DNA from: a virus
Lineage: Duplodnaviria > Heunggongvirae > Uroviricota > Caudoviricetes
DNA: 64,000 bases
Virus record (IMG/VR): IMGVR_UViG_2837719392_000001
Strand: one strand, 5' to 3'
Shown one piece after another: positions 5,995 to 28,450 of this stretch. The stretch's first letter is position 1; each line of letters starts with the position of its first letter. The notes beneath the pieces are model-generated. The model had not been told where the DNA came from. It was given only the letters and a program-made list of their open reading frames with translations, and ran no database searches. The position numbers and the translations under genes were made by a program.

Positions 5995-6627
5995 CTAATG
6001 ATTCTTGATATATGCAAGATAAATGAATTCTAACATGGCTACGAGTCTTTCTGTTCTGACAGGGACAGATACTCTAGCTGTTTTCCCATCTCTTGTTTCT
6101 GAAACACCAATCATCCAGTTTCCTTCACGATTTCCTGGAGTGACTGTAAATGTTCTTTGGAATGCCTTCCCTTCAAATTCGGGTTGTTTAAATTCACTAA
6201 AGACTGCTGAAGCGAATTTTTTCTTTCCATCTCTCATGGCTTCTCTTTCTGTTGCTTCTAAATCAAAGATATAGCCTGACGTAAAGGCCCATCTTAAGTA
6301 TAGTAAATTCTTAAAATCCAAATAGTAAGGGATGAACGCCTTTTGTTTGTTGGATTCATCTAATTCGACGAAGTTCATATGAACCTTACAGTCCATACCT
6401 GCATCATCATCAACCAAATTAAATCCATCCTGTAAAACTTCTAGGAATACATCTCCTCCTGTTTTTCTTTGAGCATATACTTTATCAATTTTCTTAGCAT
6501 ATTCTTTCTTATCTTCCTTTTCTTTGACTTCAGTTTTAACTTCTGAACTCATAGTTTTAGGAGTATATGTTTTCATTTCTACTCCCTTGTTTTCTTTGTT
6601 TGCTTTTGCTTTGTCTTTTAATCCCAT
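5995..6627 (-). CDS. hypothetical protein (Lys/Glu-rich N-terminus)
   Basis: 210-aa ORF. No recognisable motifs. Confidence 0.45.
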   Translation of the reverse strand: MGLKDKAKANKENKGVEMKTYTPKTMSSEVKTEVKEKEDKKEYAKKIDKVYAQRKTGGDVFLEVLQDGFNLVDDDAGMDCKVHMNFVELDESNKQKAFIPYYLDFKNLLYLRWAFTSGYIFDLEATEREAMRDGKKKFASAVFSEFKQPEFEGKAFQRTFTVTPGNREGNWMIGVSETRDGKTARVSVPVRTERLVAMLEFIYLAYIKNH

Positions 6628-6746
6628 AGTTTTCCTCCTTTAAACAAAAAAGACACACATCATGTGCGTCTTTTCTTTCGTATATGATTTACATATATAT
6701 TTTATCATAAATCATTATTTCATTGTAAAGATAAATAATAATAATT

Positions 6747-6762
6747 TGGTCACTAGTGACCA
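6747..6762. repeat. parS-like perfect palindrome TGGTCACTAGTGACCA (copy 1), extended to a 24-bp palindrome AATTTGGTCACTAGTGACCAAATT; 3' of parB
   Basis: Exact self-complementary 16-mer. One of 5 identical copies in the window. Confidence 0.8.
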
Positions 6763-6770
6763 AATTTCAG

Positions 6771-7820
6771 TTAGTCAGCAATTTTGGATTTTAGAGTATT
6801 TAAAACTGTTTCGATTTCCTGAATACTATCTAGAATTTCCTTTCTCTCATTTTCATCCACTGTTATTTTTATTCCATCCATTTGTTGTACCTGTTTTTTT
6901 ATCTTATCAATGTTCTTGATTGCTTCAAATCCTTTCATTCGAGAAACCTTTTTTGGTTTTGATTCTTTGAAAGTCTTCAGATAAGCCTTGAATTCCTTGT
7001 CTGTCATTTTATTAGATTTTTCTAAAACATTTTTCTGCATCTCAAGAGGCATATCAGACACTATAAGTGCCTCACTTTTTGAAATATATTCTTTTTCATA
7101 ATATTGTCTCAACATTGGATGTCCGTTGTAGATTTTGTAATATTGTTTAATTGCTGTTCGCCCGAAACTATACCCCATATCCTTAAAGGCGTATTGTATC
7201 TGTTCAATTTTTTCTTTTTTAGGATTGAAAGATACATAATTTCCTTCATCATCTTTTTCAAATATAATATCAAAGCAACTAAACAACTCATCTAGTTCAA
7301 TTTTTCTGTTGTATGCATTGGTTTCAACAATAACTTCTTGAATTTCCTGCTCAGTTGTTCCTAAAGGTAAAACTGTACACCATACCTGAGAAAAACGCTC
7401 TGCGACTTTTTCGTTTCCTTCATCAATTGCAGAATTATGAATATTTGTAATAGCTTTAAAACGTCTTGAACCAGCTTTGATTTCATATTTCCCAGAAGGT
7501 TTACCATCCTCATTTTGTAGCGTCAGAATAATGATGGGTTGTAACTGTCCTAGTTTTTTTATTGATTTTTCTAGATAATAAGTCCCTTTCACTTTAAATG
7601 GATTAGCTGTGTTATCGACCAATTTATCTAATGTAATATATCTCGCATTTAATCTGGTTGTTTCAGCTAATGTTTTTTCTATATTATCGGCGTCTATTGC
7701 CATTCTTTGTTGAGGTGAAAACAAACTTGTGCTATGTTGGCTTTTACCCATTGAATTTATCGACTTTCTCTGCTTAGCCATTGCTTTCATCTCCTTTCTC
7801 GTTTTCTTCATCTTGTTCAA
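6771..7820 (-). CDS. parB: ParB-like partition protein (ParB/Srx N-terminal domain)
   Basis: 349 aa. GxxQPIIxxx...YEIxAGSRRFKAI ParB box. Overlaps parA end. True start may be a downstream Met (7781-7811). Confidence 0.75.
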   Translation of the reverse strand: MNKMKKTRKEMKAMAKQRKSINSMGKSQHSTSLFSPQQRMAIDADNIEKTLAETTRLNARYITLDKLVDNTANPFKVKGTYYLEKSIKKLGQLQPIIILTLQNEDGKPSGKYEIKAGSRRFKAITNIHNSAIDEGNEKVAERFSQVWCTVLPLGTTEQEIQEVIVETNAYNRKIELDELFSCFDIIFEKDDEGNYVSFNPKKEKIEQIQYAFKDMGYSFGRTAIKQYYKIYNGHPMLRQYYEKEYISKSEALIVSDMPLEMQKNVLEKSNKMTDKEFKAYLKTFKESKPKKVSRMKGFEAIKNIDKIKKQVQQMDGIKITVDENERKEILDSIQEIETVLNTLKSKIAD

Positions 7821-8736
7821 TGATTTCTTTTGCTAAAGAATATATGGCTTGTCTATATGATTGCCAAGCTTTGCCATTTTGTTGAACAGCAATCTCACCT
7901 GTTCCTGATAACTCTTTTAGCTTCAAGTTTCTTGGTATGATTGTTTTAAACATGTGAAGATTATTGTTACTAGCATAATCTGAAACCTCATCATAGGTTC
8001 TCTTGTCAAAATTCGTTTTTGCGAATTCATTGAAAAGCACCCCTCTTATTTTGAACATAGGAAGCACCTGACCTAAATCCTGTAAATTATCAAGAACCAT
8101 ATCAATTCCTAATGTACTTAATTGGTCTGTAATTGTTGGGATAATAATAGAGTCACATGCTAATAATGTACTAGTTACCAAGTATCCTAAATTTGGTGGA
8201 CAGTCAATAAAGATATAATCATAATCATACATCTTCTTGATTCTATTCACAATCATAGCTAATACTGCAGTTCCATATTGTCTATTTTCAGGCTGTATAA
8301 TAAAGGCGTCAGGTGGAGCTGCTGAATATATAAGTTCTGCTAATGATAAATCCTTACCAACGCTTGGAATTAAATCAAAGTAGAATTCCGTTTCTTTATC
8401 TTCCCATTGAATAGTTCCTTCTTTTCTTTGACTTTTTAGATATGTTGGGCGTATGATAGTTTCTTCAAAATCTTCATACTCAGGCAATTCCCCGAACCAT
8501 TGATATTTTTGTTCTAAATACCCTAACGTGCTGACTCCATCATCAACCTCAACTCTTCCGTTTTCCTTAATTGACATATTTGCCAAAAAGCTTAATGAAC
8601 ATTGGACATCGTTATCAATAACCAACACCTTCTTATTAAAATCTCTACCTAACGTCTCCGCTAGATTTATGGTTAATGTGGTTTTCCCGACACCACCCTT
8701 TGAATTATACATAGTAATAACTTTTGTATCGCTCAT
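7774..8736 (-). CDS. parA: ParA/Soj-family partition ATPase
   Basis: 320 aa. Deviant Walker A KGGVGKTT at the N-terminus. Confidence 0.85.
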   Translation of the reverse strand: MSDTKVITMYNSKGGVGKTTLTINLAETLGRDFNKKVLVIDNDVQCSLSFLANMSIKENGRVEVDDGVSTLGYLEQKYQWFGELPEYEDFEETIIRPTYLKSQRKEGTIQWEDKETEFYFDLIPSVGKDLSLAELIYSAAPPDAFIIQPENRQYGTAVLAMIVNRIKKMYDYDYIFIDCPPNLGYLVTSTLLACDSIIIPTITDQLSTLGIDMVLDNLQDLGQVLPMFKIRGVLFNEFAKTNFDKRTYDEVSDYASNNNLHMFKTIIPRNLKLKELSGTGEIAVQQNGKAWQSYRQAIYSLAKEIIEQDEENEKGDESNG

Positions 8737-8936
8737 TTCTTATCTACCCTTTCTATTCATTAAATAATTATAGCGAAATTAAATTATATAATCAAACCTT
8801 TTTATATAATATAGACTGATTAAAAAAGTGACTTTTAGAATTTTTTTAGATATTTGCGATTTTACAAGGAAACACATAGAAATCTTCACTTAGCGTATTC
8901 CTTACTATAACCTATCCAAACTCCATATATTAAAAA

Positions 8937-8952
8937 TGGTCACTAGTGACCA
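8937..8952. repeat. parS-like palindrome TGGTCACTAGTGACCA (copy 2), upstream of parA
   Basis: Exact 16-bp palindrome, flanked by AAA/TTT making a 22-bp palindrome. Confidence 0.8.
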
Positions 8953-9047
8953 TTTTTGTTTATTATTTATTTATTGCTAATATTGATATTATCCTTGCTA
9001 TCTTCTTTAATATCTTTTTAATGTATTTGATTTGTACTTATTGGATT

Positions 9048-9063
9048 TGGTCACTAGTGACCA
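9048..9063. repeat. parS-like palindrome (copy 3)
   Basis: Exact 16-bp palindrome. Confidence 0.8.
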
Positions 9064-9160
9064 TTTTTGAAAACATCATTTTCGCGCCCTCTGTCATTTA
9101 TGACAGTTTCTATCTATACCCTATATAACTTCATATTTCATATCGCATACTTGTATAATA

Positions 9161-9176
9161 TTGTTTCTTGGTCACT
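9161..9176. repeat. parS-like palindrome (copy 4)
   Basis: Exact 16-bp palindrome. Confidence 0.8.
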
Positions 9177-9199
9177 AGTGACCAAATTGAATTTATGAA

Positions 9200-11175
9200 G
9201 AATAAAGCATTGACTTTTAAAGGACTTCTTCCTTATGTCATATAAATTATAACTTTATATTCTAGGACGATTTTTTATTGTTTTATAAGGTTTTTCGATA
9301 GGTTTTTTTTAGTATTTTTCTCTTCTCTATATTTCTTTGGTTTTTTATACGTTTTATTCCATTTTTCTTTAGTTTCTATAATCATCTATCAATAATACCC
9401 CCCCTATTCTCGTCCCATTCAAACCCTACTCATCTCCCATTAATTCAAATGTATTTAGATAGAATTTGAATAGCTTATTCATTTAGACTCATTATGTATT
9501 CAACCCCTATTTATCTTCTATCCAACCTCCTTCATCCTCACAATTCATATTCTCACCATATCTGTCGATATCTTTTTCTCTATCCTTTATCTTATCATAT
9601 CCATACCACATCATATATGACGAGGATTGAGATAGAGTTTTATTAGGATTGTATATAAACACTCGTCTCTACTTCTTCACAAAAGAAAAGAGATGAAATC
9701 CTATCATTCCCCTATCTATTCCCTACAAGCTCAAGCTATACTTTAGTTGATATCCAGTAACGTTGTAGAGTGATGATAGAATATGGATAGAAAGAAGTCG
9801 CTTCTGTGCTAATTATTACCCTATACAAAAAGAATCCACACCTATTCATATCCTATCCAATTCCCCATAAATAAAGTAATGCTTTATAAAAGGATATTGA
9901 TAGAATTGAAATAGTATATCTATAAAAAAAACTAATCATAGACTTTACAATTGTACATAATCAATCCTATTTATAATCTATCAAATATCCTATACGTATA
10001 AAGTATGATGAATTGAATATAGCAAGGTTTTAAATAGATGCTGTGATATTTCTTTACAAAAGTCGTGATTAAAAACCTTTCATAATCTTTTACAATTCCT
10101 TCAGAACGAATCAGGAGTTGAAGGAATAGAAAAGAATTATAAAAGAATCTATCTTCTTCCCTCATTCTAAAAAGACTCTTTTCATATCCAAATATCTACA
10201 CCTTGTACCAATCTAAACCCTATCCAAACTCATTCAAGAACTCATTACATTATGAAAAGTTAAATTTAGATTTTGGGAAGGATAATATCCAGCTAAATTA
10301 TTGCTAAAGTATAACTTGAGTCATAGAAGAATTCTATCAATAATCTTTCAAGCTTCTTTCAGAGCTTTTATATAAGATAGGGTTAGTAGAGATAATGGAT
10401 TTTGATAGATGATGGATAGTATTTAGCTATGACATATAAAAATTATTATTTTATCAAAAAAGAAAATCCTATCAACTCTCTATCAAAATTCCTTCAATCT
10501 CAATTTATATAAAGTATAGCTTTAGTTATATAAACAACAACCCCTCATAAATTCCATTCATCTCCCATTCTGAATATAAAAATCTTATCGCATAGAAATA
10601 GTTTTAATAGAAGATAAAAAGAATATGAGGAGATTAAATGTACTTGGTATAAAATTATCAAATACCAATGTAACACCATCTAAACTCTTTTCAAAACAAA
10701 AAGATAACGATATCAGTTGAATAAGATAATGATAGAAGTAGGAGGGATGTGCAAAGAATCTTAATACACCATCAAAACTCTATCAAAAGCCTAATGATAT
10801 TGAATTGTAAAAGTTTGGATGATGATAGACTTTAGATGGGGTTGAAAGGGTTAAATTGATGGAAGGGTTTGGAAAGAATGTGGAGGGGTTCATATGAGCC
10901 TAAGAATAGGATAATGAGGGATATAGATAGACTCGTATTGGAAAAACAGTAAAAAAATACGATAAATCGCATATTTATCAAGAAAATAGTATTTTTAAGG
11001 AAAAAGAGGGAAAACCAATTAAAAACTATTAAAAAAACCAATAAGAAATAGGATAAAACTTAAAGTTATTATTCTTATTGTATAAGGAAGAAGTCCTCTT
11101 AAAGTCACTTTCATCAAACACTTAATTTATCCATCACAAAGAAGAATATGATACAATAGATACGTAATCTAATAC
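9200..11175. other. about 2-kb non-coding region with degenerate iteron-like repeats (ATCCTATC / CTATCAA(A) / TATCCAAACTC). Pyrimidine-rich top strand 9300-10600 switches to purine-rich at 10700-11050. Candidate replication origin and/or long ncRNA.
   Basis: No ORF >70 aa on either strand. Repeated motifs visible by eye. Ends at a strong intrinsic terminator. Confidence 0.35.
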
Positions 11176-11208
11176 GAATGGAGACATGTCATCGGCATGT
11201 CTCTTTTT
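11176..11208 (+). terminator. rho-independent terminator closing the non-coding region
   Basis: GAGACATG-n8-CATGTCTC hairpin followed by a T7 run. Confidence 0.6.
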
Positions 11209-11232
11209 TTGTAAAATTAAAGGAGGAATACA

Positions 11233-11890
11233 ATGAAGAAAAAGAAATGTCCAGTCTGCGGTGCATTACTAGACGAGGACAATGAATTAAGATGCAGTCG
11301 CTTTCCCATCTGCACCTTTCAAGAATCTACAAACACAAATCTAGAAAGATATATCATGTATGACCTTGAAACATCAGGATTTAAGGATAGTGACCATATC
11401 ATAGAAATTGGAGCTATTTATGTAGAGGATGGAAAGGTTGTGGATGGGTTTGATAAATTATGCAACCCTGGAATTTTCATCAATCAGAGAATCACTCAAG
11501 TAACAAACATTACAAATGATATGTTAAAGGACAAGGAGTCTGAAGAAAGTGTACTGAAGGAGTTTATCGAATGGGTCCACTCAAAGAATACAGACGTCTG
11601 TGTCGGTCATAACATTGACGCGTTCGATAACAGAATGTTAAACGCAGCATGCAAAAAATACAGACAGCAAATGCCATTCCATAGAACACTAGACACCCTC
11701 AAAATGGCAAGGAATCTAAAATTAAAGGAAAGGGGGGGTAGTCCAAGATTATAAACAGGAAACATTGGCAAATGAATATTGTCATTTTACATATTCAGCC
11801 CATAGAGCAATCCAAGACGTAGAAGCATTATTTAGAATTTTTGAAGTTTTAAGAAAGGAATATCAACAACTTCCAATTATCAATATCTGA
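11233..11890 (+). pseudogene. DEDDh 3'-5' exonuclease (DnaQ-like) with N-terminal zinc ribbon (CPVCG...C..C). Frameshifted in a G7 run at 11732-11738.
   Basis: Exo I DLETSG and Exo II GHNIDAFD are in frame 1, ending at 11754. The Exo III motif YCHFTYSAHRAIQDV continues in the -1 frame to TGA at 11888-11890. Removing one G restores a 218-aa protein. Confidence 0.65.
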
Positions 11891-11893
11891 TAA

Positions 11894-12604
11894 ATGGGAT
11901 TAAAACAGAAGTGTCTAAATAATGCAAAGAAATCTAACTATCTTGGAGATAAATGTTTTGAAGAAACATCTATGCACTACCTTGAAAATACTCAGATATT
12001 CAAAGACATGAATATTAGAGAAGTCGTTCATGATAGGTCGAGACAATTAAAAGGTATTGATGCTATAGGAAGCATAGGAAATCACAGCATCAATGTCGAT
12101 GTCAAGGCTATTGCATCTCAATTAAATACATTCTGCTTTGAAATAAGCGGTAATGTATCAACAAATCAGGTGGGATGGCTGATTAATCCAAAACTAGAAA
12201 CAACACATTATCTGATTGTCTATCACACAGTGAAAGGAGCTGAAAGAAATTACAGATTAGGAAAAAGAATTATGACAGTCAATAACGTGATAGAAACAGA
12301 AGCGTTGTTAATAGAAAAAGAAAAACTGAAGTCATTCATTCAAAAGGAATTAGGACAGAATCTTGATAGTGTTGTCAAGGAAATCAGAAAACAGGACTTA
12401 GAGGGTAGGGGAGTTGTAAGATTCAATAAAGAAATGAACGTAGTCAAAGGTACAGTGAATCAAAAGGCTTATCCTACAATTTCTCTAGGTTTAAAAGAAC
12501 AGCCTATCAATGTCGTTGTCAGAAAAGAAAGCTTAAAAGAATTAGCTGACAAGCATTGGATTATAGAAGATGAAAAGAATATGGTCACTAGTGACCAAAT
12601 CTAA
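11894..12604 (+). CDS. hypothetical protein. Its 3' end contains parS-like palindrome copy 5.
   Basis: 236-aa ORF, no clear motifs. The last codons ATGGTCACTAGTGACCAAATCTAA encode the palindrome. Confidence 0.45.
   Translation: MGLKQKCLNNAKKSNYLGDKCFEETSMHYLENTQIFKDMNIREVVHDRSRQLKGIDAIGSIGNHSINVDVKAIASQLNTFCFEISGNVSTNQVGWLINPKLETTHYLIVYHTVKGAERNYRLGKRIMTVNNVIETEALLIEKEKLKSFIQKELGQNLDSVVKEIRKQDLEGRGVVRFNKEMNVVKGTVNQKAYPTISLGLKEQPINVVVRKESLKELADKHWIIEDEKNMVTSDQI
12582..12597. repeat. parS-like palindrome (copy 5)
   Basis: Exact 16-bp palindrome TGGTCACTAGTGACCA. Confidence 0.8.
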
Positions 12605-12689
12605 AATTCACCTATTATCTTGCTAAAAAACATGATTAACTTTCACACATCAAAGAAAATATATGATATACTTTATGTGTAAATATTAT

Positions 12690-12730
12690 ACGAGAAGAGA
12701 TTCCTATTTTTAGTGAATCTCTTTTTTATT
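12690..12730 (+). terminator. hairpin + T-run (terminator/attenuator) immediately upstream of the SpoVG-like RBS
   Basis: AGAGATTC-n12-GAATCTCT followed by TTTTTTATTT. Confidence 0.5.
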
Positions 12731-12747
12731 TGAAGGAGGAAAATTTA

Positions 12748-13401
12748 ATGCCAAGTTTAAAAGGTAGAGCAAAAGCTAAAACAGAATCACAAGAAAAAGA
12801 AACTAAAACAGTAGATGTAAGAATGAGAAAAGTGGAATTTGAAAACAACCCATCACTTAAAGCATTCTTTACGGCTACAGTAACAGGATATCCAGTAGCT
12901 ACTAGAGTTACATTCACTGAAAAAGAAAAAGAAGAATCAGACGATACGGAAGAAATCAATCCAGATGACTTCAATATCTTATTCCAATCAAAAGTAGGTA
13001 AGGATGGTAAGCGATATCCATTGTTACATCCAATTGATGCAGAAACAAGAAATGATATTAAGTTAAATGTTTTGAGTGCATTTAAGAGATTCTTTGAAGA
13101 TGAAAAAGATGTATTTGTAGATGAAAACGACATTGCAGTATCTCAAGTTGCAGAGAAAAATTACTTTAAAGGTCAAGTTGGTGACGCACTCGTTCAAACT
13201 ACAAGAACAATGGCTTTAAAAGATATGGAATTACATGTCAATAAAGATGGTAATTACTATATTACTTATCCAAGTTATCCAAGTAAGCAAAAAAATGCTG
13301 AAGGAAAATATGATAGATTTCCATATTATTGGCCACAAAAAGATAGTGATACAACACAAGCTATCTTAGAAGCTGCAGTCAAAGAATATGAAAAAGCTTA
13401 G
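12748..13401 (+). CDS. SpoVG-like protein with repeated SpoVG-type modules
   Basis: VDVRMRKVEF...FFTATV...YPVATRV resembles the SpoVG N-terminus. Second and third repeats (KRYPLLHPIDAETRNDIKLNVLSAF; YYITYPSYPS...). Start moved to ATG with GGAGG RBS. Confidence 0.55.
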   Translation: MPSLKGRAKAKTESQEKETKTVDVRMRKVEFENNPSLKAFFTATVTGYPVATRVTFTEKEKEESDDTEEINPDDFNILFQSKVGKDGKRYPLLHPIDAETRNDIKLNVLSAFKRFFEDEKDVFVDENDIAVSQVAEKNYFKGQVGDALVQTTRTMALKDMELHVNKDGNYYITYPSYPSKQKNAEGKYDRFPYYWPQKDSDTTQAILEAAVKEYEKA

Positions 13402-13459: not shown

Positions 13460-14031
13460 GTGTTTCGTATTAGCCTAAAAAAAGTTTCACGTGAAACGAA
13501 ATCCATCAAAAAACTCCCATCAATCCAACTTTTTTTAGACGTCTCCTCTACAAACACAGGAGTTGCTATCTTGTTGGAAGATGGAAGGGTGATGATGGAC
13601 TCAATCAACCTCAAAAGATTCCAAAGACCACCCTGTATGTCTTTGACAGATTATGAAAAGGTCAAGATAGGAGTCATCAAGGAATATCTAGATAAGCTTG
13701 AAGAGAAATACAGGATTGATTTGGTGTGTGTTGAGGGTATATTCATTCGCCCTGGATATAATCAATCTTCTCAAATCCTTCTCAAACTCCACGGATTTTT
13801 GATGGGATATTTTCTGGATACACCATTCATATCAATACCACCATCAAACATAAAAAAGCTATAGCAGGGAAGGGTAATGCAAAAAAGGAAGAAGTGAGAG
13901 GAAGATTAGAAGAGGTATATCAATATCATTTTCGAAGTGATGATGAAAGTGATGCAATGGCCCTGCTCGTTACTTACAAAGGCCATAGTCAATATCAAAT
14001 AGAACAGAAGGAGGATACTTATGGAATATGA
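13460..14031 (+). pseudogene. RuvC-family Holliday-junction resolvase (phage-type). Frameshifted in an A6 run at 13852-13857.
   Basis: N-terminal LDVSSTNTGVAIL (RuvC motif I) in frame 1, ending at 13864. The C-terminal KKAIAGKGNAKKEEV...SDDESDAMALLV (RuvC motif IV) continues in the +2 frame to TGA at 14029-14031. Confidence 0.65.
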
Positions 14032-19455: not shown

Positions 19456-21078
19456 ATGGACAAATATTATAAATATGAAGACAAAATAGTCAATTCCTTT
19501 CTTTTTGTACCAAAGTTCTTGTTTTCTGACGAACGCTTTATGAAGTTAAGTGTCACAGAGAAACTGATTTATTCCTTATATCTACACAGATATACAATAA
19601 GCCAATATCATGACGAGATAGGACGATATATCATTTTTACTGATGATGATATTGTTGACAAACTTTACATCACTTCAAGGACTTGTATCAGAGCTAGAAA
19701 AAAACTCGAAGAAGCAAATCTCATCAAAATCCAAAAAACTCTAACATATAACAAAATCTATCTTGTTAATGTACTTAAAGCTTCTGAAAGTGAACATTTC
19801 TTTAACGAAAATGATTTGGAGGGATTAAAATTTTATCAGTTCCCAAGAGAATTCTTTGAAGATACTTATAAAAACTTAACACTGAATGCCAAGATGGTCT
19901 ATACAGTTTTTCTAGATACTTTAACTCTTAGTCAAATGAATTACTTTGTAGATTCTAACAAAAGGATTTATTTTCAGGAGAACATGGACATACAGATAAA
20001 AAAACTAAATCTAACAAAGCCAACAATACGTGAGGCAAGATACCTCTTGATGGTATGTGGATTGTTGTTAGAGTATAAAACATTCACTGAAGATATCAGA
20101 TATTATCCATTAAAGTTGTCTCACTTTACAGATAGAACTGCTGAATATAAAAAATGTAAAACAGCAAAAGAGAAGAAAGAATTTATAGAGATGACAACAA
20201 AACAAGACAAAGATGAGTTAATACTGAATCCATTAAAAATAGGTGTAAAACTTAAGGACTATAGAAAAGACGCAGGACTTACACAGACAAGACTAATCTC
20301 TTTATTAAGAGAAAAAAATGTAGATATTACTCAGCAGACTTATTCTTCATATGAAAATGGAAAGTTACATATCAAAAAAGAACTTTATGATATCTGTTTA
20401 GAGTGCATACAGGACGAAAAGAAAAAATTGTCTGAGTATACAAGACCAAAAGAAAATATTGTCATGAATGACAACTCTAAAGAAAAAAATTGTCATGACA
20501 TACAAGCTGAAAACAAAGAAATGTCATTAGTGGAAGAAAAATTATTCACGAATGAAAAGAAAGAATTGACATCTCCTGAAAGAAAAGAAAGTCATATAAA
20601 TTATACTTATACAAACAAAAAAGAAAATAATTATAATGAAAAATTAATAGAATTAATTAATTATATTAATAACATTATAAATACTTCACATATTCTTTTA
20701 GAAGAAAAAGATTACTTAACTGCATGTTTTGATAAGCTTCGTATATATAAACGATTCTATCTCAATACTTCACAAGAACTATTCACAACAGAAAGATTAT
20801 ATGAAGTCTTACAGAAGATGAATGAAAGAAATAAAGTTGAAGAGGTGTGTTTGAAGATTTTAGATAGAATTGAAACTAGCCATTATCAATTTAAGACACC
20901 TGATTCAGCCATCAATTGTTTTATTACTTTCTTGCTTAATGAACTAAAAGTAGAGGAAAAACAAGCTGATGATGTCCCAGAATGGTTTTCTAAAAAGAAA
21001 TTTCAGTTTGGTAGATTACCTGAACGTCATGTTGATGTATCTGATGATATAAAAAATTTAAAATGGTGGGAGGATTAA
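19456..21078 (+). CDS. RepA_N-family plasmid replication initiator. Duplicated RepA_N module plus central XRE-type HTH and long K/E/N-rich C-terminus.
   Basis: YKYEDKIVNSFLFVPKFLFSDERFMKLSVTEKLIYSLYLHRY matches the RepA_N signature. Second copy YQFPREFFEDTYKNLTLNAKMVYTVFLD. AAAGGAGG RBS. Confidence 0.7.
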   Translation: MDKYYKYEDKIVNSFLFVPKFLFSDERFMKLSVTEKLIYSLYLHRYTISQYHDEIGRYIIFTDDDIVDKLYITSRTCIRARKKLEEANLIKIQKTLTYNKIYLVNVLKASESEHFFNENDLEGLKFYQFPREFFEDTYKNLTLNAKMVYTVFLDTLTLSQMNYFVDSNKRIYFQENMDIQIKKLNLTKPTIREARYLLMVCGLLLEYKTFTEDIRYYPLKLSHFTDRTAEYKKCKTAKEKKEFIEMTTKQDKDELILNPLKIGVKLKDYRKDAGLTQTRLISLLREKNVDITQQTYSSYENGKLHIKKELYDICLECIQDEKKKLSEYTRPKENIVMNDNSKEKNCHDIQAENKEMSLVEEKLFTNEKKELTSPERKESHINYTYTNKKENNYNEKLIELINYINNIINTSHILLEEKDYLTACFDKLRIYKRFYLNTSQELFTTERLYEVLQKMNERNKVEEVCLKILDRIETSHYQFKTPDSAINCFITFLLNELKVEEKQADDVPEWFSKKKFQFGRLPERHVDVSDDIKNLKWWED

Positions 21079-22271: not shown

Positions 22272-22354
22272 CGTCCTCGTGATGGAACTGGTAGACATGC
22301 ATGGCTTAGACCCATGTGCTTATGCGTAAGGGTTCGAATCTCTTCGAGGACACC
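22272..22354 (+). tRNA. tRNA-Leu (anticodon TAG), class II
   Basis: Acceptor GTCCTCG/CGAGGAC, anticodon stem CATGG/CCATG with loop CTTAGAC, T-loop TTCGAAT, CCA encoded. Confidence 0.75.
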
Positions 22355-22398
22355 AATATCACTCCAATTCTTGTAAAGAGTGAATATATGAAATTATA

Positions 22399-22471
22399 TG
22401 AACATCTAGCATAATGGAAATGCGTAGGGTTCAGCGCCCTTCATGATACTGGTTCAAGTCCAGTGGTGTTC
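22399..22471 (+). tRNA. tRNA-like gene with atypical anticodon arm (loop TTCAGCG, identity unresolved), no encoded CCA
   Basis: Acceptor GAACATC/GGTGTTC (7 bp incl. G-U), D-arm GCAT/ATGC, T-arm ACTGG-TTCAAGT-CCAGT. Anticodon stem has a mismatch and a 6-nt variable region. Confidence 0.4.
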
Positions 22472-22521
22472 AAATACCAGATTAGAAATAAGGCTAAAAC
22501 AGGGATAATCATATCCCTACA

Positions 22522-22661
22522 TGGTCCTTTAGCTCAGTAGGTAGAGCAGATGACTGTTATACATCACTACATCAAATAAAGACAGTTAAGTACGTGATGT
22601 ATGTCAACACTTTGTGTTGACAAATCATAGCTTGCAGGTTCGAATCCTGTAGGGACCACCA
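22522..22661 (+). tRNA. tRNA-Asn (GTT) gene interrupted by about 67-nt insertion at the 3' side of the anticodon loop (about 22559-22625)
   Basis: 5' half GGTCCTT-TA-GCTC-AGTAGGTA-GAGC-A-GATGA-CTGTTA. 3' half TCATA-GCTT-GCAGG-TTCGAAT-CCTGT-AGGGACC-A-CCA. Near-identical to the intact paralog at 23946. Insert has two perfect hairpins. Confidence 0.6.
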
Positions 22662-22688
22662 AATATACATTTTTTGTGACAAACAATA

Positions 22689-22766
22689 TTGGTGAGTAGC
22701 GTAGTTGGTTAGCGCAATCGGCTGTTAACCGATGGGTCGTGGGTTCAAGTCCCACCTCGCCAGCCA
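22689..22766 (+). tRNA. tRNA-Asn (GTT)
   Basis: U1-A72, loop CTGTTAA, T-arm GTGGG-TTCAAGT-CCCAC, discriminator G, CCA. Confidence 0.8.
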
Positions 22767-22767
22767 T

Positions 22768-22843
22768 GGCCTGTTCGTCTAAAGGTTAGGACACAACCCT
22801 TTCACGGTTGCAATGTTGAGTTCAAGTCTCACACAGGTCGCCA
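22768..22843 (+). tRNA. tRNA-Glu (TTC)
   Basis: Acceptor GGCCTGT/ACAGGTC, loop CTTTCAC, CCA. Confidence 0.8.
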
Positions 22844-22848
22844 AAAAT

Positions 22849-22925
22849 GGACATTTAGCTCAGGTGGTTAGAGCCATCGCCTCATAAGCGATTGGTCGGA
22901 GGTTCAAGTCCTTCAATGTCCACCA
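22849..22925 (+). tRNA. tRNA with CAT anticodon, elongator Met or Ile2 (lysidine) type
   Basis: Acceptor GGACATT/AATGTCC (G1-C72, so not initiator), loop CTCATAA, CCA. Confidence 0.75.
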
Positions 22926-22934
22926 TATAAAGAT

Positions 22935-23009
22935 GGTGAGGTTAGCTTAATGGTAAAGCGCTGGACTGTGGCCCCAGTTATACGAGTTCGATTCTCGTAC
23001 TTCACACCA
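22935..23009 (+). tRNA. tRNA-His (GTG) with encoded G-1
   Basis: G-1 then GTGAGGT acceptor, loop CTGTGGC, T-loop TTCGATT, CCA. Confidence 0.75.
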
Positions 23010-23014
23010 AAAAT

Positions 23015-23091
23015 TGGAAAGTAGCTCAGTTTGGTAGGGCGCACACTTTGGGAGCGTGAGGGCATGGGTTCAAATCCCATCTTTCCAACCA
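23015..23091 (+). tRNA. tRNA-Pro (TGG)
   Basis: Acceptor TGGAAAG/CTTTCCA, classic Pro loop TTTGGGA, one A-C mismatch in anticodon stem, CCA. Confidence 0.7.
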
Positions 23092-23105
23092 TATATTCCA
23101 CATAT

Positions 23106-23181
23106 GCCACCATAGCACAACTGGCAGTGCAACTGACTTGTAATCAGGAGGTTGGAGGTTCGACTCCTTCTGGTGGCACCA
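23106..23181 (+). tRNA. tRNA-Thr (TGT)
   Basis: Acceptor GCCACCA/TGGTGGC, loop CTTGTAA, CCA. Close to B. subtilis tRNA-Thr. Confidence 0.8.
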
Positions 23182-23186
23182 TATTT

Positions 23187-23271
23187 GGGGAAGTATTCCG
23201 TAACAGGTAGCGGGCTTGACTGTAAATCAGGTGTTTAAACTCAGAGTGTTCGAGTCACTCCTTCCCCACCA
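23187..23271 (+). tRNA. tRNA-Tyr (GTA), class II
   Basis: Acceptor GGGGAAG/CTTCCCC, loop CTGTAAA, long variable arm, CCA. Confidence 0.8.
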
Positions 23272-23283
23272 ATAAAATAATCT

Positions 23284-23372
23284 GCCCAAATGGTGAAATC
23301 AGGTAGACACACTGGACTTAAAATCCAGAGGAAGAAAATTCCGTGCCAGTTCGAGTCTGGCTTTGGGTACCA
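23284..23372 (+). tRNA. tRNA-Leu (TAA), class II
   Basis: Acceptor GCCCAAA/TTTGGGT, loop CTTAAAA, long variable arm, CCA. Confidence 0.8.
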
Positions 23373-23378
23373 TATTTT

Positions 23379-23453
23379 GCGGGTGTGATTCAACGGCTAG
23401 AATGTCAGCCTTCCAAGCTGACTACGTGGGTTCGATTCCCATCACCCGCTCCA
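23379..23453 (+). tRNA. tRNA-Gly (TCC)
   Basis: Acceptor GCGGGTG/CACCCGC, loop CTTCCAA, discriminator T, CCA. Confidence 0.8.
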
Positions 23454-23458
23454 TAAAT

Positions 23459-23548
23459 GGAAAGTAAATCCAAGAGGTTTTGGAACACGCCTGCTAAGCG
23501 TTGTGTGGGTATGACACCCATGAGTTTCGATTACTCTGCTTTCCGCCA
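23459..23548 (+). tRNA. tRNA-Ser (GCT), class II
   Basis: Acceptor GGAAAGT/GCTTTCC, loop CTGCTAA, long variable arm, discriminator G, CCA. Confidence 0.75.
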
Positions 23549-23551
23549 TAT

Positions 23552-23682
23552 ACGTCCTTAGCTCAGAGGAAAGAGCACGCGCCTTCTACATTGCAATCTG
23601 TAGATAGCAAGACATTGAAAATCAATCAAGTTGATTTTCATATAAGCGTGATGTCGAAGGTTCGACTCCTTCAGGGCGTACC
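23552..23682 (+). tRNA. tRNA-Arg (TCT) gene interrupted by a 55-nt insertion (about 23590-23644) between anticodon-loop position 38 and the 3' anticodon stem
   Basis: 5' exon ACGTCCT-TA-GCTC-AGAGGAAA-GAGC-A-CGCGC-CTTCTAC. 3' exon GCGTG-ATGTC-GAAGG-TTCGACT-CCTTC-AGGGCGT-A-CCA. All other arms canonical. Insert has hairpins TCTACA/TGTAGA (pairs with anticodon) and GAAAATCAA/TTGATTTTC. Confidence 0.65.
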
Positions 23683-23691
23683 AATTCAATA

Positions 23692-23768
23692 TCGCGGGGT
23701 AGAGCAGTTTGGTAGCTCGTCGGGCTCATTCCCCGAAGGTCGCAAGTTCAAATCTTGCCCCTGCAACC
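23692..23768 (+). tRNA. initiator tRNA-fMet (CAT)
   Basis: C1 x A72 mismatch (CGCGGGG...CCCTGCA-A-CCA). Near-identical body to E. coli tRNA-fMet, but anticodon loop reads CTCATTC (T37 instead of A, unusual). Confidence 0.7.
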
Positions 23769-23771
23769 AAA

Positions 23772-23848
23772 TGGTCTGGTAGTTCAGTTGGTTAGAACGC
23801 CGCCCTGTCACGGCGGAGGTCGCGGGTTCGAGCCCCGTCCAGACCGCC
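23772..23848 (+). tRNA. tRNA-Asp (GTC)
   Basis: Acceptor GGTCTGG/CCAGACC, stem CCGCC/GGCGG, loop CTGTCAC, discriminator G, CCA. Confidence 0.8.
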
Positions 23849-23853
23849 ATAAA

Positions 23854-23941
23854 CGCTTGCGTGTGATAATTGGTAGTCGCGCGGTCTTGAAAACCGTTGA
23901 CGGGAAACCGTTTGAGAGTTCGAGTCTCTCCGCAAGCGCCA
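23854..23941 (+). tRNA. tRNA-Ser (TGA), class II
   Basis: Acceptor GCTTGCG/CGCAAGC, loop CTTGAAA, long variable arm, CCA. Confidence 0.8.
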
Positions 23942-23945
23942 ATAA

Positions 23946-24021
23946 GGTTCCTTAGCTCAGTAGGTAGAGCGGATGACTGTTAATCATTAGGCCGCAGGTT
24001 CAAGTCCTGCAGGGACCGCCA
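23946..24021 (+). tRNA. tRNA-Asn (GTT), intact paralog of the interrupted gene at 22522
   Basis: Acceptor GGTTCCT/AGGGACC, stem GATGA/TCATT, loop CTGTTAA, CCA. Confidence 0.8.
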
Positions 24022-24022
24022 C

Positions 24023-24097
24023 GGCCCGTTCGACAAGTGGTTAAGTCACTACCCTTTCACGGTAGTATCGTGGGTTCAAATCCCGCACGGGTCACCA
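24023..24097 (+). tRNA. tRNA-Glu (TTC), second copy
   Basis: Acceptor GGCCCGT/ACGGGTC, loop CTTTCAC, CCA. Confidence 0.8.
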
Positions 24098-24100
24098 TAT

Positions 24101-24176
24101 GGACATTTAGCTCAGGTGGTAGAGAGGATGATTATTAAAAATCATCAAGTCGGAGGTTCAAATCCTCCAATGTCCA
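24101..24176 (+). tRNA. tRNA-like gene. Paralog of the CAT tRNA at 22849 but with an enlarged anticodon loop (GATGA-TTATTAAAAA-TCATC) and no encoded CCA. Possible pseudogene or unconventional decoder.
   Basis: Acceptor GGACATT/AATGTCC, T-arm GGAGG-TTCAAAT-CCTCC. 10 nt between the 5-bp anticodon stem halves. D-stem has one mismatch. Confidence 0.4.
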
Positions 24177-24186
24177 CTTCTTTCGT

Positions 24187-24262
24187 GGTTTCGTAGCTCA
24201 ATAGGTAGAGCGCTTGGCTGAAGACCAAGGCAGTATTGGTTCAATTCCAGTCGAAACCACCA
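24187..24262 (+). tRNA. tRNA-Phe (GAA)
   Basis: Acceptor GGTTTCG/CGAAACC, stem CTTGG/CCAAG, loop CTGAAGA, CCA. Confidence 0.8.
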
Positions 24263-24267
24263 TAAAT

Positions 24268-24346
24268 GGGGAATGGGAATGCTAGGAGTGTTCACCTGCC
24301 TTGCAAGCAGGAATGCAGATGGGTTCAAATCCCATATTCTCCACCA
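24268..24346 (+). tRNA. tRNA-Ala (TGC)
   Basis: G3-U70 identity pair, stem CCTGC/GCAGG, loop CTTGCAA, slightly long variable region, CCA. Confidence 0.7.
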
Positions 24347-24353
24347 AAAATCT

Positions 24354-24429
24354 AGGAGCGTAGCACAAAGGTGAATGCACACGACCGATAATCGTGCGAC
24401 TGCAAGTTCGAGTCTTGCCGTTCCTACCA
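24354..24429 (+). tRNA. tRNA-Ile (GAT) with C at position 33
   Basis: Acceptor AGGAGCG/CGTTCCT, stem CACGA/TCGTG, loop CCGATAA, CCA. Confidence 0.65.
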
Positions 24430-24432
24430 TAT

Positions 24433-24504
24433 CATCTGTAGCTTATATGGTAAAGCCACAGCCGTTAGTGCTGGGGAAGTTTGGTTCGACTCCAGACCAG
24501 ATGC
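24433..24504 (+). tRNA. tRNA-like gene with aberrant anticodon loop (CGTTAGT, G at position 33, possible TTA/TAG-type anticodon). No CCA.
   Basis: Acceptor CATCTGT/CCAGATG (6 bp), D-arm GCTT/AAGC, T-arm TTTGG-TTCGACT-CCAGA. Anticodon stem has only 4 bp. Confidence 0.35.
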
Positions 24505-24918: not shown

Positions 24919-24995
24919 AGCAGAATGGCGAAAATGGTAGACGCACAGGACTTTGACTCCTGCATTTGGAGGTTCGAACCCTTCTTCTGCTGCCA
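24919..24995 (+). tRNA. tRNA-Gln (TTG)
   Basis: Acceptor AGCAGAA/TTCTGCT, stem CAGGA/TCCTG, loop CTTTGAC, discriminator G, CCA. Confidence 0.8.
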
Positions 24996-28446: not shown

Positions 28447-28450
28447 AAAT

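What the first reader, a model, noticed from the sequence alone, without database searches (positions are those of the whole stretch)
6747..12597. Five exact copies of a 16-bp palindrome (TGGTCACTAGTGACCA) clustered around parAB: candidate parS centromere
Identical perfect palindromes occur at 6747, 8937, 9048, 9161 and 12582. Three are packed within 240 bp immediately upstream of parA. One is at the 3' end of parB as part of a 24-bp perfect palindrome. One is embedded in the last codons of a downstream gene. A 16-bp inverted repeat matches the architecture of ParB-binding parS sites, though its sequence differs from the chromosomal consensus TGTTNCACGTGAAACA. This suggests an element-specific ParB-parS pair. 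The repeat contains an ACTAGT (SpeI) core.
Basis: seen in the sequence. Interest (0 to 1): 0.6.

Follow-up and report, generated by a model that had tools for sequence, protein, structure and literature searches.

The report
Element-specific parS centromere sites around parAB
Five identical 16-bp palindromes next to a parA-parB gene pair are very probably the docking sites (a centromere) that let a large gut-bacterial phage- or plasmid-like DNA element be shared out at cell division: an ordinary mechanism with a previously undescribed site sequence.

Summary
No copy with up to 3 mismatches occurs elsewhere in the 64 kb. The sites bracket an overlapping parA-parB operon and a 2-kb ORF-free stretch where gene orientation and GC skew switch, a candidate replication origin.

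The interpretation as an element-specific parS is supported in silico.
- ParA has a deviant Walker A motif.
- ParB has the GxxRxxA box, and its predicted fold matches the CTP-dependent ParB/Noc/KorB proteins.
- Four independent syntenic relatives (ParB 57-80% identical) carry 5-8 TGGTC-N6-GACCA sites at the same positions.
- Their arms are invariant (aTTTGGTCR....YGACCAAAt) but the centre varies, so the SpeI core is not the conserved part.
- More distant family members, mostly RepA_N plasmids, keep the layout with other half-sites: TGGTTA, TGGGTTA, TGGGCA, GGGTAC.
- Outside this element family the 16-mer occurs only as rare singletons in public genome and virus collections.

This is a new member of a known kind. 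ParB binding is inferred, not shown. A host-type parS core (GTTTCACGTGAAAC) lies 0.9 kb beyond the outermost site, and 3 of the 4 syntenic relatives that cover this position keep it.

The parts
6747..6762 (.). parS-1. 16-bp palindrome inside a 24-bp perfect palindrome (6743-6766) that begins 5 nt after the parB stop codon.
   Evidence: A site at the equivalent position, 0-10 nt after the parB stop, is present in L001, L003, L004, L012 and L050.
8937..8952 (.). parS-2. Inside a 26-bp perfect palindrome (8932-8957), 201 nt upstream of the parA start.
   Evidence: Identical 26-mer in L004 and L005.
9048..9063 (.). parS-3, 312 nt upstream of the parA start.
9169..9184 (.). parS-4. Inside an 18-bp palindrome (9168-9185), 433 nt upstream of the parA start, at the left edge of the ORF-free region.
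12582..12597 (.). parS-5, embedded in the last codons of ORF 11894-12604 (236 aa, no family hit).
   Evidence: A site at the same codons is present in L001, L003, L004 and L012. In L012 the centre changes (TS to GG) while the arms are kept.
6771..7781 (-). parB, 336 aa from the ATG at 7781. The 100%-identical database cluster P0001 is 346 aa long, consistent with the in-frame upstream ATG at 7811. The protein has a ParB/Srx N-domain with the GxxRxxA box (KAGSRRFKA), an ETN..R box, an HTH region (MGYSFGRTAIKQYYKIY), a helical C-terminus and a basic N-terminal peptide (MAKQRK).
   Evidence: - Pfam ParB_N: 25.1 bits, just below the gathering score of 26.3.
- NCBIfam Noc/ParB N-terminal hits, below their cutoffs.
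- PHROG ParB-like, 6e-15.
- PDB sequence alignment to the Caulobacter ParB box II.
- Family invariants.
- AlphaFold2 model, pLDDT 75.9.
- Foldseek top 29 hits are all ParB/Noc/KorB/Spo0J/pNOB8-like ParB.
7774..8736 (-). parA, 320 aa. It has a deviant Walker A motif (KGGVGKT at residues 13-19) and no N-terminal HTH. Its 3' end overlaps the parB start by 8 nt.
   Evidence: - Pfam AAA_31 3e-30 and CbiA 4e-19.
- PHROG ParA-like, 1.5e-43.
- NCBIfam ParA/PrgP partial hits, below their cutoffs.
- Translation.
9185..11232 (.). ORF-free, AT-rich 2-kb region and candidate replication origin. Genes diverge from it, and the GC skew changes sign inside it at about 10.25-10.5 kb. Short CTATCMA/TKGATAG motifs are enriched. 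No DnaA boxes, no Rfam hit, and not coding under any single stop-codon recoding.
   Evidence: skew; motifs, DnaA boxes; recoding; Rfam. An equivalent ORF-free stretch is present in all syntenic relatives, but its core is not conserved by blastn.
9211..9264 (.). Left arm of a 54-nt inverted repeat (80% complementary) that bounds the ORF-free region. The partner arm is 11054-11107.
   Evidence: I1. Both arms are conserved in L001, L003, L004 and L012 although the interior is not. Function unknown.
11054..11107 (.). Right arm of the bounding inverted repeat.
13483..13498 (.). Host-type parS-like site AGTTTCACGTGAAACG. The central 14 of 14 positions match the chromosomal parS consensus. It lies at the 5' end of, or just upstream of, the RuvC-like gene, 0.9 kb beyond parS-5.
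   Evidence: The expected count of the exact 14-mer in the window is 2e-4. It is conserved in L001, L003 and L004 but not in L012, and it sits in a generally conserved block.

Best explanation
The five palindromes are the parS centromere sites of a ParABS partition system carried by a large extrachromosomal element. By its closest relatives the host is an Erysipelotrichaceae gut bacterium (Massilimicrobiota).

Inferred mechanism:
1. A ParB dimer places one helix-turn-helix on each TTGGTCR half-site. The half-sites sit about one helical turn apart and the central 4 bp are not read.
2. parS binding together with CTP closes the N-terminal gate, so ParB clamps slide off and accumulate over the roughly 6 kb spanned by the sites.
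3. This 6-kb stretch brackets the ORF-free region, which is the probable replication origin.
4. The basic N-terminal peptide of ParB stimulates the nucleoid-bound Walker ATPase ParA, and this drives sister copies apart.
5. The three sites 200-450 nt upstream of parA probably also let ParB autoregulate the operon.

Shown here: the existence, number and clustering of the sites; the identity of ParA and ParB; conservation of site position and arms in relatives; and family-wide change of half-site with ParB clade.

Inferred: ParB binding, CTP dependence, spreading, partition activity, autoregulation, and the assignment of the origin.
For: Site statistics
- Five exact copies lie within 5.85 kb and none in the other 58 kb, even with 3 mismatches allowed. 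0 of 100 shuffles reach 5.
- GGTC-N6-GACC gives 5 observed against 0.19 expected.

Genes
- ParA hits AAA_31/CbiA and has the KGGVGKT motif. It hits PHROG ParA at 1.5e-43.
- ParB aligns its GxxRxxA box to Caulobacter ParB.
- The family alignment has invariant EIKAGSRR, GQLQP and N..R motifs.
- Foldseek gives ParB-CDP/CTPgS, Noc-NBS and KorB hits with E from 3.5e-7 to 3e-5 over about 230 columns, covering the N-domain and the DNA-binding domain.

Comparative evidence
- Four independent syntenic relatives (L001, L003, L004, L012) carry 5-8 TGGTC-N6-GACCA sites each, against an expected 0.01-0.04. L002 and L005 repeat L001 and L004.
- The sites sit at the same landmarks: 3-5 in the stretch between the ORF-free region and parA, one 0-10 nt after the parB stop, and one in the tail of the 236-aa ORF.
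- In 60 half-sites, T-G-G-T-C is invariant. The next base is always a purine (A or G), the flank is A/T-rich and the centre is free.
- ParB family members at 32-40% identity, mostly on RepA_N plasmids, keep the same layout with other half-sites:
  - L006: TGGTTA-N4-TAACCA, 7 dispersed sites
  - L008 and L010: GGTTA-type
  - L048 and L046: TGGGCA/TGGACA
  - L050: TGGGTTA
  - L051: GGGTAC

- The HTH segment of ParB differs between these clades.
- Some plasmid relatives have a separate hairpin followed by a T-run next to the sites (L010, L048). The sites are therefore not merely the operon terminator.

Public collections: the 16-mer occurs only as singletons with no parAB nearby.

Precedent: replicon-specific 16-bp palindromic parS families are known (PMC5450999). 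Single dispersed IR centromere sites with a variable centre are known in prophage-plasmid N15 (PMC7205306).
Against: - No binding or stability data exist.
- ParB is very divergent. Pfam ParB_N is just below its gathering score, and the best PDB sequence hit for ParB has E = 0.87. CTP binding and the residues that contact DNA are therefore inferred from motifs and from a medium-confidence model (pLDDT 75.9).
- All five sites also pass a loose hairpin-plus-T-run screen.
- A second candidate centromere, the host-type parS core at 13483, is conserved nearby. I cannot show which protein binds which site.
- Only 64 kb of an element that may be about 230 kb was available, so restriction of the sites to the parAB/ori neighbourhood is shown only for this window and for loci of about 21 kb or less in relatives.
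- A RepA_N-type initiator is also present both in this element and in the plasmid relatives. parAB is therefore not strictly the only shared candidate binder.
Confidence: 0.8

Rival explanations
1. The palindromes are mainly transcriptional operators. ParB would act like KorB of RK2, or another repressor would bind them, to control the divergent early and maintenance genes that flank the ORF-free region. Partition would then be secondary or absent.
For: - Three sites lie in the parA upstream region, 201-448 nt from the start codon.
- KorB is among the structural matches (8qa8, E 2e-5).
- The dispersed single sites resemble the dispersed KorB operators (my own knowledge of RK2).
Against: - Two of the five sites lie at the 3' ends of genes: after the parB stop and in the last codons of ORF 11894-12604. 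These positions are conserved in relatives and are poor places for operators.
- The best promoter-like match for parA (8795-8767) is about 140 nt from the nearest site.
- An intact partner ParA ATPase is encoded and co-conserved.
- Regulation and partition are not mutually exclusive. Autoregulation by ParB is already part of the best explanation.
Confidence: 0.08
2. The palindromes are binding sites of the replication machinery. They could be sites for the RepA_N-type initiator at 19456-21078, or boundary or termination elements of the origin, rather than for ParB.
For: - The sites flank the ORF-free region where the GC skew flips.
- A RepA_N-domain protein is encoded in the window, and RepA_N genes sit next to parAB in the plasmid relatives.
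Against: - The most consistently conserved landmark is a site at or shortly after the parB stop. It is there in all four independent phage-like relatives and in L050, and downstream of parB in the plasmid-type loci L006, L010, L046 and L048; none was found there in L008.
- No site lies in or next to the RepA_N gene in the window. In L006 the 7 sites are spread over 12 kb, not centred on repA.
- RepA_N origins are typically iterons inside the rep gene (my own knowledge).
- The ORF-free core between the sites is not conserved among relatives, while the sites are.
Confidence: 0.07
3. The palindromes are RNA hairpins acting as intrinsic, partly bidirectional transcription terminators.
For: - All five are picked up by the terminator-like scan. 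Site 1 follows the parB stop, and site 2 has an A-tract/T-tract arrangement (AAAAATGGTCACTAGTGACCATTTTT).
- Positions 6 and 11 mostly change together, A..T to G..C.
Against: - The stems are short (6-7 bp, 3 G-C pairs).
- T-runs are absent or weak at sites 4 and 5, and AT-rich flanks make the screen unspecific.
- Three to five copies in a row in a promoter-side intergenic region have no terminator logic.
- Several relatives have asymmetric sites (TGGTCACTAGCGACCA) that break the closing pair but keep the TGGTCR half-sites.
- The flanks are conserved symmetrically (aTTT...AAAt), as expected for a dimeric protein site.
- Plasmid relatives carry a separate hairpin followed by a T-run beside the site.
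Confidence: 0.04
4. The 16-mer is a generic dispersed repeat or a chance cluster with no specific function.
For: None found.
Against: - 0 of 100 shuffles reach 5 copies.
- The 16-mer occurs as singletons only in 596 Gb of genomes and in IMG/VR.
- Similarity between copies does not extend beyond about 24-26 bp, so the copies are not a mobile element.
- Position is conserved in orthologous loci.
Confidence: 0.01

Closest known systems
Replicon-specific 16-bp palindromic parS families of secondary replicons and large plasmids (Bsr systems of Burkholderiales; PMC5450999)
   Same: - 16-bp palindromes are read by an HTH ParB dimer, one arm per monomer.
- Several copies lie near parAB.
- Specificity is narrow and differs between related ParB clades.
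- Some positions tolerate change.
   Different: - The sequence is unrelated. Bsr sites have a T-rich 5' end and a conserved central CG. Here the arms (TGGTCR) are read and the centre is free.
- The ParB here is a separate, rare subfamily: 19 clusters at 50% identity with E below 1e-30 among 1.84 billion representatives.
- The lineage is Bacillota and phage- or plasmid-like.
Chromosomal ParABS (Spo0J/ParB with TGTTNCACGTGAAACA sites clustered around oriC)
   Same: - Single 16-bp palindromes are dispersed over several kb around the (candidate) origin, some inside coding sequence.
- The ParA has no N-terminal HTH.
- The ParB has the CTP-binding boxes.
- The best structural matches are chromosomal ParB and Noc.
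   Different: - Only 6 of 16 positions match the consensus.
- ParB is 15-18% identical to the solved ParBs in the structural alignments.
- ParA is 320 aa with an insertion.
- A separate canonical-type site (13483) sits next to the element-specific ones.
Sop system of prophage-plasmid N15 (four separate IR centromere sites; PMC7205306 and Ravin & Lane 1999, cited there)
   Same: - A phage-related extrachromosomal element is partitioned through a few single inverted repeats rather than a tandem array.
- The N15 IRs (GTGCGACC-NN-GGTCGCAC) likewise have constant arms and a variable centre.
   Different: - There is no detectable SopB relationship.
- ParA gives only a 25-bit partial hit to the SopA model, whose cutoff is 725, and lacks the type Ia N-terminal HTH.
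- The sites here cluster within 6 kb around parAB and the candidate origin. I did not verify where the N15 IRs lie in its genome.
KorB-OB of IncP plasmid RK2
   Same: A CTP-dependent ParB-family protein binds dispersed palindromic sites and serves both partition (with the ParA homologue IncC) and transcriptional control. It is a structural match (8qa8).
   Different: - The OB sequence is unrelated (my own knowledge: TTTAGCSGCTAAA).
- There is no evidence here for regulation at a distance or for a KorA-like partner.
- The sites here are confined to the par/ori neighbourhood in the 64 kb seen.

Membership tests
ParABS partition system with HTH-type (CTPase) ParB | Walker-type ParA ATPase with a deviant Walker A motif (KGGxxK[ST]) | tested here: met
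   KGGVGKT at residues 13-19. Pfam AAA_31 3e-30 and CbiA 4e-19. PHROG ParA-like 1.5e-43.
ParABS partition system with HTH-type (CTPase) ParB | ParB with a ParB/Srx N-terminal domain carrying the GxxRxxA (box II) and ENxxR-like (box III) nucleotide-binding motifs | tested here: met
   - KAGSRRFKA aligns to AGERRWRAA of Caulobacter ParB 6t1f.
- EIKAGSRR and N..R are invariant across the family; the ET before N is invariant in the first alignment (A1) but is DL in P0019.
- Pfam ParB_N scores only 25.1 bits against a gathering score of 26.3.
- The fold matches CDP/CTPgS-bound ParB structures.
- CTP binding itself was not tested.
ParABS partition system with HTH-type (CTPase) ParB | Central helix-turn-helix DNA-binding domain following the N-domain | tested here: met
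   Foldseek alignments of about 200-245 columns to ParB, Noc-NBS and KorB chains that contain the N-domain plus the DNA-binding domain. The model has helices H191-256 at pLDDT 81-90. This rests on a medium-confidence model only.
ParABS partition system with HTH-type (CTPase) ParB | parA and parB form one operon | tested here: met
   The genes are on the same strand with an 8-nt overlap. The same arrangement is found in every relative.
ParABS partition system with HTH-type (CTPase) ParB | Repeated inverted-repeat sites in cis next to the operon, absent elsewhere on the replicon | tested here: met
   Five sites lie within 5.85 kb around parAB and none in the remaining 58 kb. The rest of the replicon, possibly about 170 kb more, was not available.
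ParABS partition system with HTH-type (CTPase) ParB | Sites conserved in position and co-varying with ParB in related systems | tested here: met
   Same landmarks and arms in L001, L003, L004 and L012, the four independent syntenic loci (L002 and L005 repeat L001 and L004). Different half-sites in more distant ParB clades with the same layout.
ParABS partition system with HTH-type (CTPase) ParB | Specific ParB binding to the site, and site-dependent stabilisation or incompatibility | not testable with these tools
   Needs EMSA, BLI or ChIP-seq, plus plasmid-stability assays.
Canonical chromosomal parS (TGTTNCACGTGAAACA) | Match to the 16-bp consensus | tested here: not met
   The five palindromes share only 6 of 16 positions with the consensus (read directly). 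A different site, at 13483-13498, matches the central 14 of 14.
Type Ia plasmid partition (P1 ParAB, F/N15 SopAB) | Large ParA (about 390-420 aa) with an N-terminal HTH autorepressor domain, and a SopB/P1-ParB-type centromere-binding protein | tested here: not met
   - The Walker A motif starts at residue 13, so there is no N-terminal domain.
- The SopA model scores 25 bits against a cutoff of 725.
- There is no SopB or P1 ParB hit.
Type Ib partition (small ParA plus ribbon-helix-helix ParB/ParG, parC upstream) | Small RHH centromere-binding protein | tested here: not met
   ParB is 336 aa with a ParB/Srx plus HTH fold.

The most novel reading that the evidence does not exclude
The element carries two centromere types side by side. 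One is its own TTGGTCR-N4-YGACCAA sites for its private ParB. The other is a conserved host-type parS (AGTTTCACGTGAAACG at 13483) that recruits the host chromosome's ParB/Spo0J, and through it SMC condensin. A large phage- or plasmid-like replicon would then combine private partition with use of the host's origin-organising machinery, or would titrate it. A second possibility is that its ParB acts like KorB as a regulator of the genes flanking the origin.
Probability: 0.15. Interest if true: 0.6.

Novelty: new member of a known kind. Interest (0 to 1): 0.3.

Why it matters
This is a textbook mechanism with a new site sequence, so the biology is not surprising.

Its value is practical.
- It assigns a centromere to a rare, unannotated ParB subfamily found so far only in metagenome-derived assemblies (one contig sits in a Massilimicrobiota MAG), on large tRNA-rich elements and on RepA_N plasmids.
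- It indicates that the 64-kb window belongs to an extrachromosomally maintained replicon, and it marks the likely origin.
- It yields a natural series of related ParB-parS pairs that could serve as orthogonal DNA-labelling pairs or as material for studying how ParB specificity evolves. The half-sites in the series are TGGTCR, TGGTTA, TGGGTTA, TGGGCA and GGGTAC.

The neighbouring host-type parS is the one element that could lead to something less ordinary.

Tried and rejected
- Megablast of 6000-13000 against the annotated phage and plasmid collections found no match.
- tblastn of ParB found no phage hit. Against plasmids it found only 26-32%-coverage N-domain hits in alphaproteobacterial plasmids, so no annotated relative with a known parS exists.
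- A profile-based locus search in IMG/VR found nothing. JGI metagenomes gave only 4 loci, 2 of them too short to use.
- The literature search for the 16-mer returned 0 papers.
- The ORF-free region as a known RNA: no Rfam hit, even at E up to 1.
- The ORF-free region as coding under stop-codon reassignment, prompted by the tRNA with anticodon TTA: the longest open stretch under any single recoding is 375 nt. Rejected.
- DnaA boxes in the ORF-free region: none within 1 mismatch.
- The CTATCMA/GATAG motif as a conserved iteron: enriched in the window, L004 and partly L001, but not in L003 or L012. Left open.
- Deciding between phage and plasmid. The window contains replication and maintenance genes and tRNAs but no recognisable virion gene. 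The strongest PHROG hit turned out to be an FtsH-like ATPase, which is uninformative. Left undecided.
- The single 16-mer hit in a Massilimicrobiota MAG contig (L017) shows no similarity to the window and no parAB. It is a chance copy.

Full report
**Observation**

A pattern search finds exactly five copies of TGGTCACTAGTGACCA, at 6747, 8937, 9048, 9169 and 12582. Allowing up to three mismatches adds none in the whole 64-kb window. Dinucleotide-preserving shuffles give 0.14 matches on average, and none of 100 reaches five.

Three copies sit inside longer perfect palindromes: 24 bp at 6743-6766, 26 bp at 8932-8957 and 18 bp at 9168-9185. The ACTAGT hexamer occurs seven times in the window, five of them inside these sites.

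**Gene context**

- ORF 7774-8736 (minus strand) is a ParA. It hits AAA_31 at 3e-30 and CbiA at 4e-19, and PHROG ParA-like at 1.5e-43. Its Walker A motif KGGVGKT starts at residue 13, so there is no N-terminal HTH domain.
- ORF 6771-7781 (minus strand) overlaps the end of parA by 8 nt and is a divergent ParB.
  - Pfam ParB_N scores 25.1 bits, just under the gathering score.
  - PHROG ParB-like scores 6e-15.
  - The best PDB sequence alignment (E = 0.87) is to Caulobacter ParB and aligns KAGSRRFKAI with AGERRWRAA, the CTP-binding box II.
- An AlphaFold2 model built on 12 homologues has mean pLDDT 75.9. Its 29 Foldseek hits below E = 1e-3 are all ParB-family proteins: ParB bound to CDP or CTPgS, Noc bound to its site, KorB, Spo0J and pNOB8-like ParB. 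The alignments run over about 200-270 columns, covering the N-domain and the DNA-binding domain.
- Site 1 starts 5 nt after the parB stop codon. Sites 2-4 lie 201-448 nt upstream of the parA start.
- Site 5 is in the last codons of ORF 11894-12604, which has no family hit.

Between sites 4 and 5 lies a 2-kb ORF-free, AT-rich stretch (9185-11232) from which genes diverge. The GC skew changes sign inside this non-coding stretch at about 10.25-10.5 kb. It is the best candidate for the replication origin. It has no DnaA boxes, no Rfam hit and no coding potential under stop-codon recoding.

**Comparative evidence, which carries most of the weight**

A search of 5.8 billion proteins found only 12 clusters related to this ParB. 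A profile search of 1.84 billion representatives found 19 clusters with E below 1e-30.

Contigs encoding ParBs of 57-80% identity are syntenic with the window. These are the independent loci L001, L003, L004 and L012; L002 and L005 repeat L001 and L004. The shared gene order is RecD2 helicase, a 210-aa ORF, parB, parA, the ORF-free stretch, an exonuclease, the 236-aa ORF, a SpoVG-like gene and a RuvC-like gene.
- Each carries 5-8 matches to GGTC-N6-GACC, against 0.01-0.04 expected.
- The matches fall at the same landmarks: a group in the stretch between the ORF-free region and parA, one 0-10 nt after the parB stop, and one in the tail of the 236-aa ORF.
- In the 60 half-sites from the window and these four loci, TGGTC is invariant. 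This includes the leading T, which the search pattern did not require.
- The next base is always a purine (A or G), the outer flank is A/T-rich (aTTT) and the central four bases are free.
- The centre is ACTAGT in the window and L004; AGTAGT, ACTAGC or AGTAGC in L001; and GC-rich (GGGTCC, GCCGGC, GCCGCC and others) in L003 and L012.
- The SpeI core is therefore incidental. The site is TTGGTCR-N4-YGACCAA, two half-sites about one helical turn apart, as expected for a dimeric HTH protein.
- L003 is a mosaic. Its right-hand module is 90% identical to the window while its parAB is 69% identical. It keeps an ACTAGT-centred site in that module alongside GC-centred sites near parAB. This fits arm-only recognition.
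- In the coding site 5, the arms (encoding V and DQ) are kept while the centre changes from TS to GG in L012.

More distant family members (32-40% identity) sit mostly on RepA_N plasmids (L006, L008-L011) or on short contigs (L045, L046, L048, L051). One more is a phage-like syntenic locus (L050). None has TGGTC-N6-GACCA. Most have another palindrome of the same 14-16-bp format in the same places; none was found in the short locus L049.
- L006: TGGTTA-N4-TAACCA, seven dispersed sites, including one between repA and parA and one about 70 nt after parB.
- L008: GGTTATCGGTAACC upstream of parA.
- L010: GGTTACCGGTATC both upstream of parA and downstream of parB.
- L048: TGGGCA-N4-TGCCCA upstream of parA and downstream of parB.
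- L046: TGGACACCGATGCCCA downstream of parB.
- L050: TGGGTTATCTAACCCA-type sites, including one 10 nt after the parB stop.
- L051: GGGTAC-N4-GTACCC, three times downstream of parB.

The putative recognition segment of ParB differs between these clades: GRTAIKQYYKIY, SPASVKDYMAIY, SASTVKEYLTIY and others. parA-parB is the only module seen next to the sites in every locus.

**Specificity in public data**

The exact 16-mer occurs in four IMG/VR contigs and in 27 stretches of the 596-Gb species-representative genome set, always once. No parA or parB homologue lies nearby in any of them. One hit is in a Massilimicrobiota MAG but is unrelated to the window. The 16-mer appears in no paper of the searchable library.

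**Mechanism (inferred)**

- ParB dimers load at the palindromes.
- The conserved GxxRxxA and ETN..R motifs and the ParB-CTP-like fold suggest CTP-dependent clamp closure and sliding. This would coat the roughly 6 kb that brackets the candidate origin.
- The conserved basic N-terminal peptide (MAKQRK) would stimulate ParA.
- The upstream trio of sites plausibly also gives autoregulation.

None of these steps was, or could be, tested here.

**Rivals**

- Terminator hairpins. All five sites pass a loose hairpin-plus-T-run screen. Against this: the stems are short, T-runs are inconsistent, and tandem copies lie on the promoter side. Asymmetric variants keep the half-site but break the stem. Plasmid relatives also have a separate hairpin followed by a T-run next to the site.
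- Initiator or origin-boundary sites. A RepA_N-domain protein is encoded at 19456-21078. However, the most consistently conserved landmark is a site at or shortly after the parB stop, and no site lies near the RepA_N gene.
- Operator-only function. This is hard to reconcile with two conserved sites at gene 3' ends.
- Generic repeat or chance. Excluded.

**Comparison with known systems**

In kind this is a ParABS system with 16-bp palindromic sites. It resembles three known arrangements:
- the replicon-specific Bsr parS families (PMC5450999);
- the chromosomal arrangement of dispersed sites around the origin;
- the single inverted-repeat centromere sites of prophage-plasmid N15, which have constant arms and a variable centre (PMC7205306).

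It is not a member of the canonical parS family (6 of 16 matches). It is not a type Ia Sop/P1 system, because ParA has no N-terminal HTH and the SopA model scores 25 bits against a cutoff of 725. It is not type Ib, because ParB is not a ribbon-helix-helix protein. I therefore file it as a new member of a known kind.

**Nature of the element**

The window has 26 tRNA genes. It also encodes RecD2, RecJ, an exonuclease, a RuvC-like protein, a type IA topoisomerase, an interrupted DNA polymerase III alpha gene and a RepA_N initiator. No recognisable virion gene was found. One relative is a 231-kb contig binned with Massilimicrobiota timonensis. Whether this is a jumbo phage-plasmid or a megaplasmid remains open. 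Either way, parABS implies extrachromosomal maintenance.

**Side observation with some potential**

AGTTTCACGTGAAACG at 13483 matches the central 14 of 14 positions of the chromosomal parS. The expected count in the window is 2e-4. It is kept in L001, L003 and L004 but not in L012, and it lies within a generally conserved block at the 5' end of the RuvC-like gene. It may recruit the host ParB, but this is untested.

**Verdict**

The mechanism is ordinary and the site sequence and ParB subfamily are new. Interest is 0.3.

Noticed in passing
window 13483-13498: AGTTTCACGTGAAACG carries the exact central 14 bp of the canonical chromosomal parS. It lies 0.9 kb beyond the outermost element-specific site. 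The expected count per window is 2e-4. It is conserved in L001, L003 and L004 but not in L012. It is a possible host-ParB/SMC recruitment site.
   Followed up: partly
window 9185-11232 (inverted-repeat arms 9211-9264 and 11054-11107): A 2-kb ORF-free region is bounded by a 54-nt inverted repeat that is conserved in all syntenic relatives, while the interior is not. The GC skew flips inside it, and CTATCMA/GATAG motifs are enriched in some relatives only. It has no DnaA boxes and no Rfam hit. It is a candidate origin; the role of the repeat is unexplained.
   Followed up: partly
window 22273-28600: An array of 26 tRNA genes includes one with anticodon TTA (24433-24505), which would read the UAA stop codon. 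ARAGORN calls it, but it is not in the Rfam gathering list. Two Rfam tRNA hits are about 130 nt long (22523-22658, 23552-23680), suggesting inserts or introns. TAA is nevertheless the commonest stop codon of long ORFs (31 of 50).
   Followed up: no
window 58065-63994 (- strand): The DNA polymerase III alpha gene is split into three ORFs: 62636-63994, 60590-61393 and 58065-59522. Two insertions separate them, each encoding a homing endonuclease: HNH at 61547-62275 and GIY-YIG at 59622-60425. These are probably introns or inteins.
   Followed up: no
window 19456-21078 (+): A 540-aa protein has a RepA_N plasmid-initiator domain (8.8e-17) and a DnaD-like PHROG hit. It lies about 10 kb from parA. 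In the plasmid relatives of the ParB family, the RepA_N gene lies directly divergent from parAB.
   Followed up: partly
window 11233-11890 (+): The RNase T/DnaQ-like exonuclease gene is interrupted by a frameshift at a run of G at about 11733-11739. It reads as 173 aa plus a continuation in another frame. It is an intact 218-aa ORF in L001, L003, L004 and L012. This is either a sequencing error or a slippery site.
   Followed up: no
window 34460-37884 (+): Seven consecutive ORFs of similar size (141-166 aa); the three that were scanned have no PHROG hit, and the two of those also scanned against Pfam have no Pfam hit. They may be a tandem paralogue array.
   Followed up: no
L001 6645-6660: The relative L001 carries an extra 16-bp palindrome, AGGTTCACGTGAACCT, in its ORF-free region. 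Its TTCACGTGAA core resembles the canonical parS core.
   Followed up: no
window 31271-32734, 45197-49334 and 52658-54328: The element encodes unexpected cellular-type proteins: a flotillin/SPFH protein, a MoxR/CobT-like ATPase pair and an FtsH-like AAA protease, which is 46-52% identical over about three-quarters of its length to sequences in various phage records.
   Followed up: no
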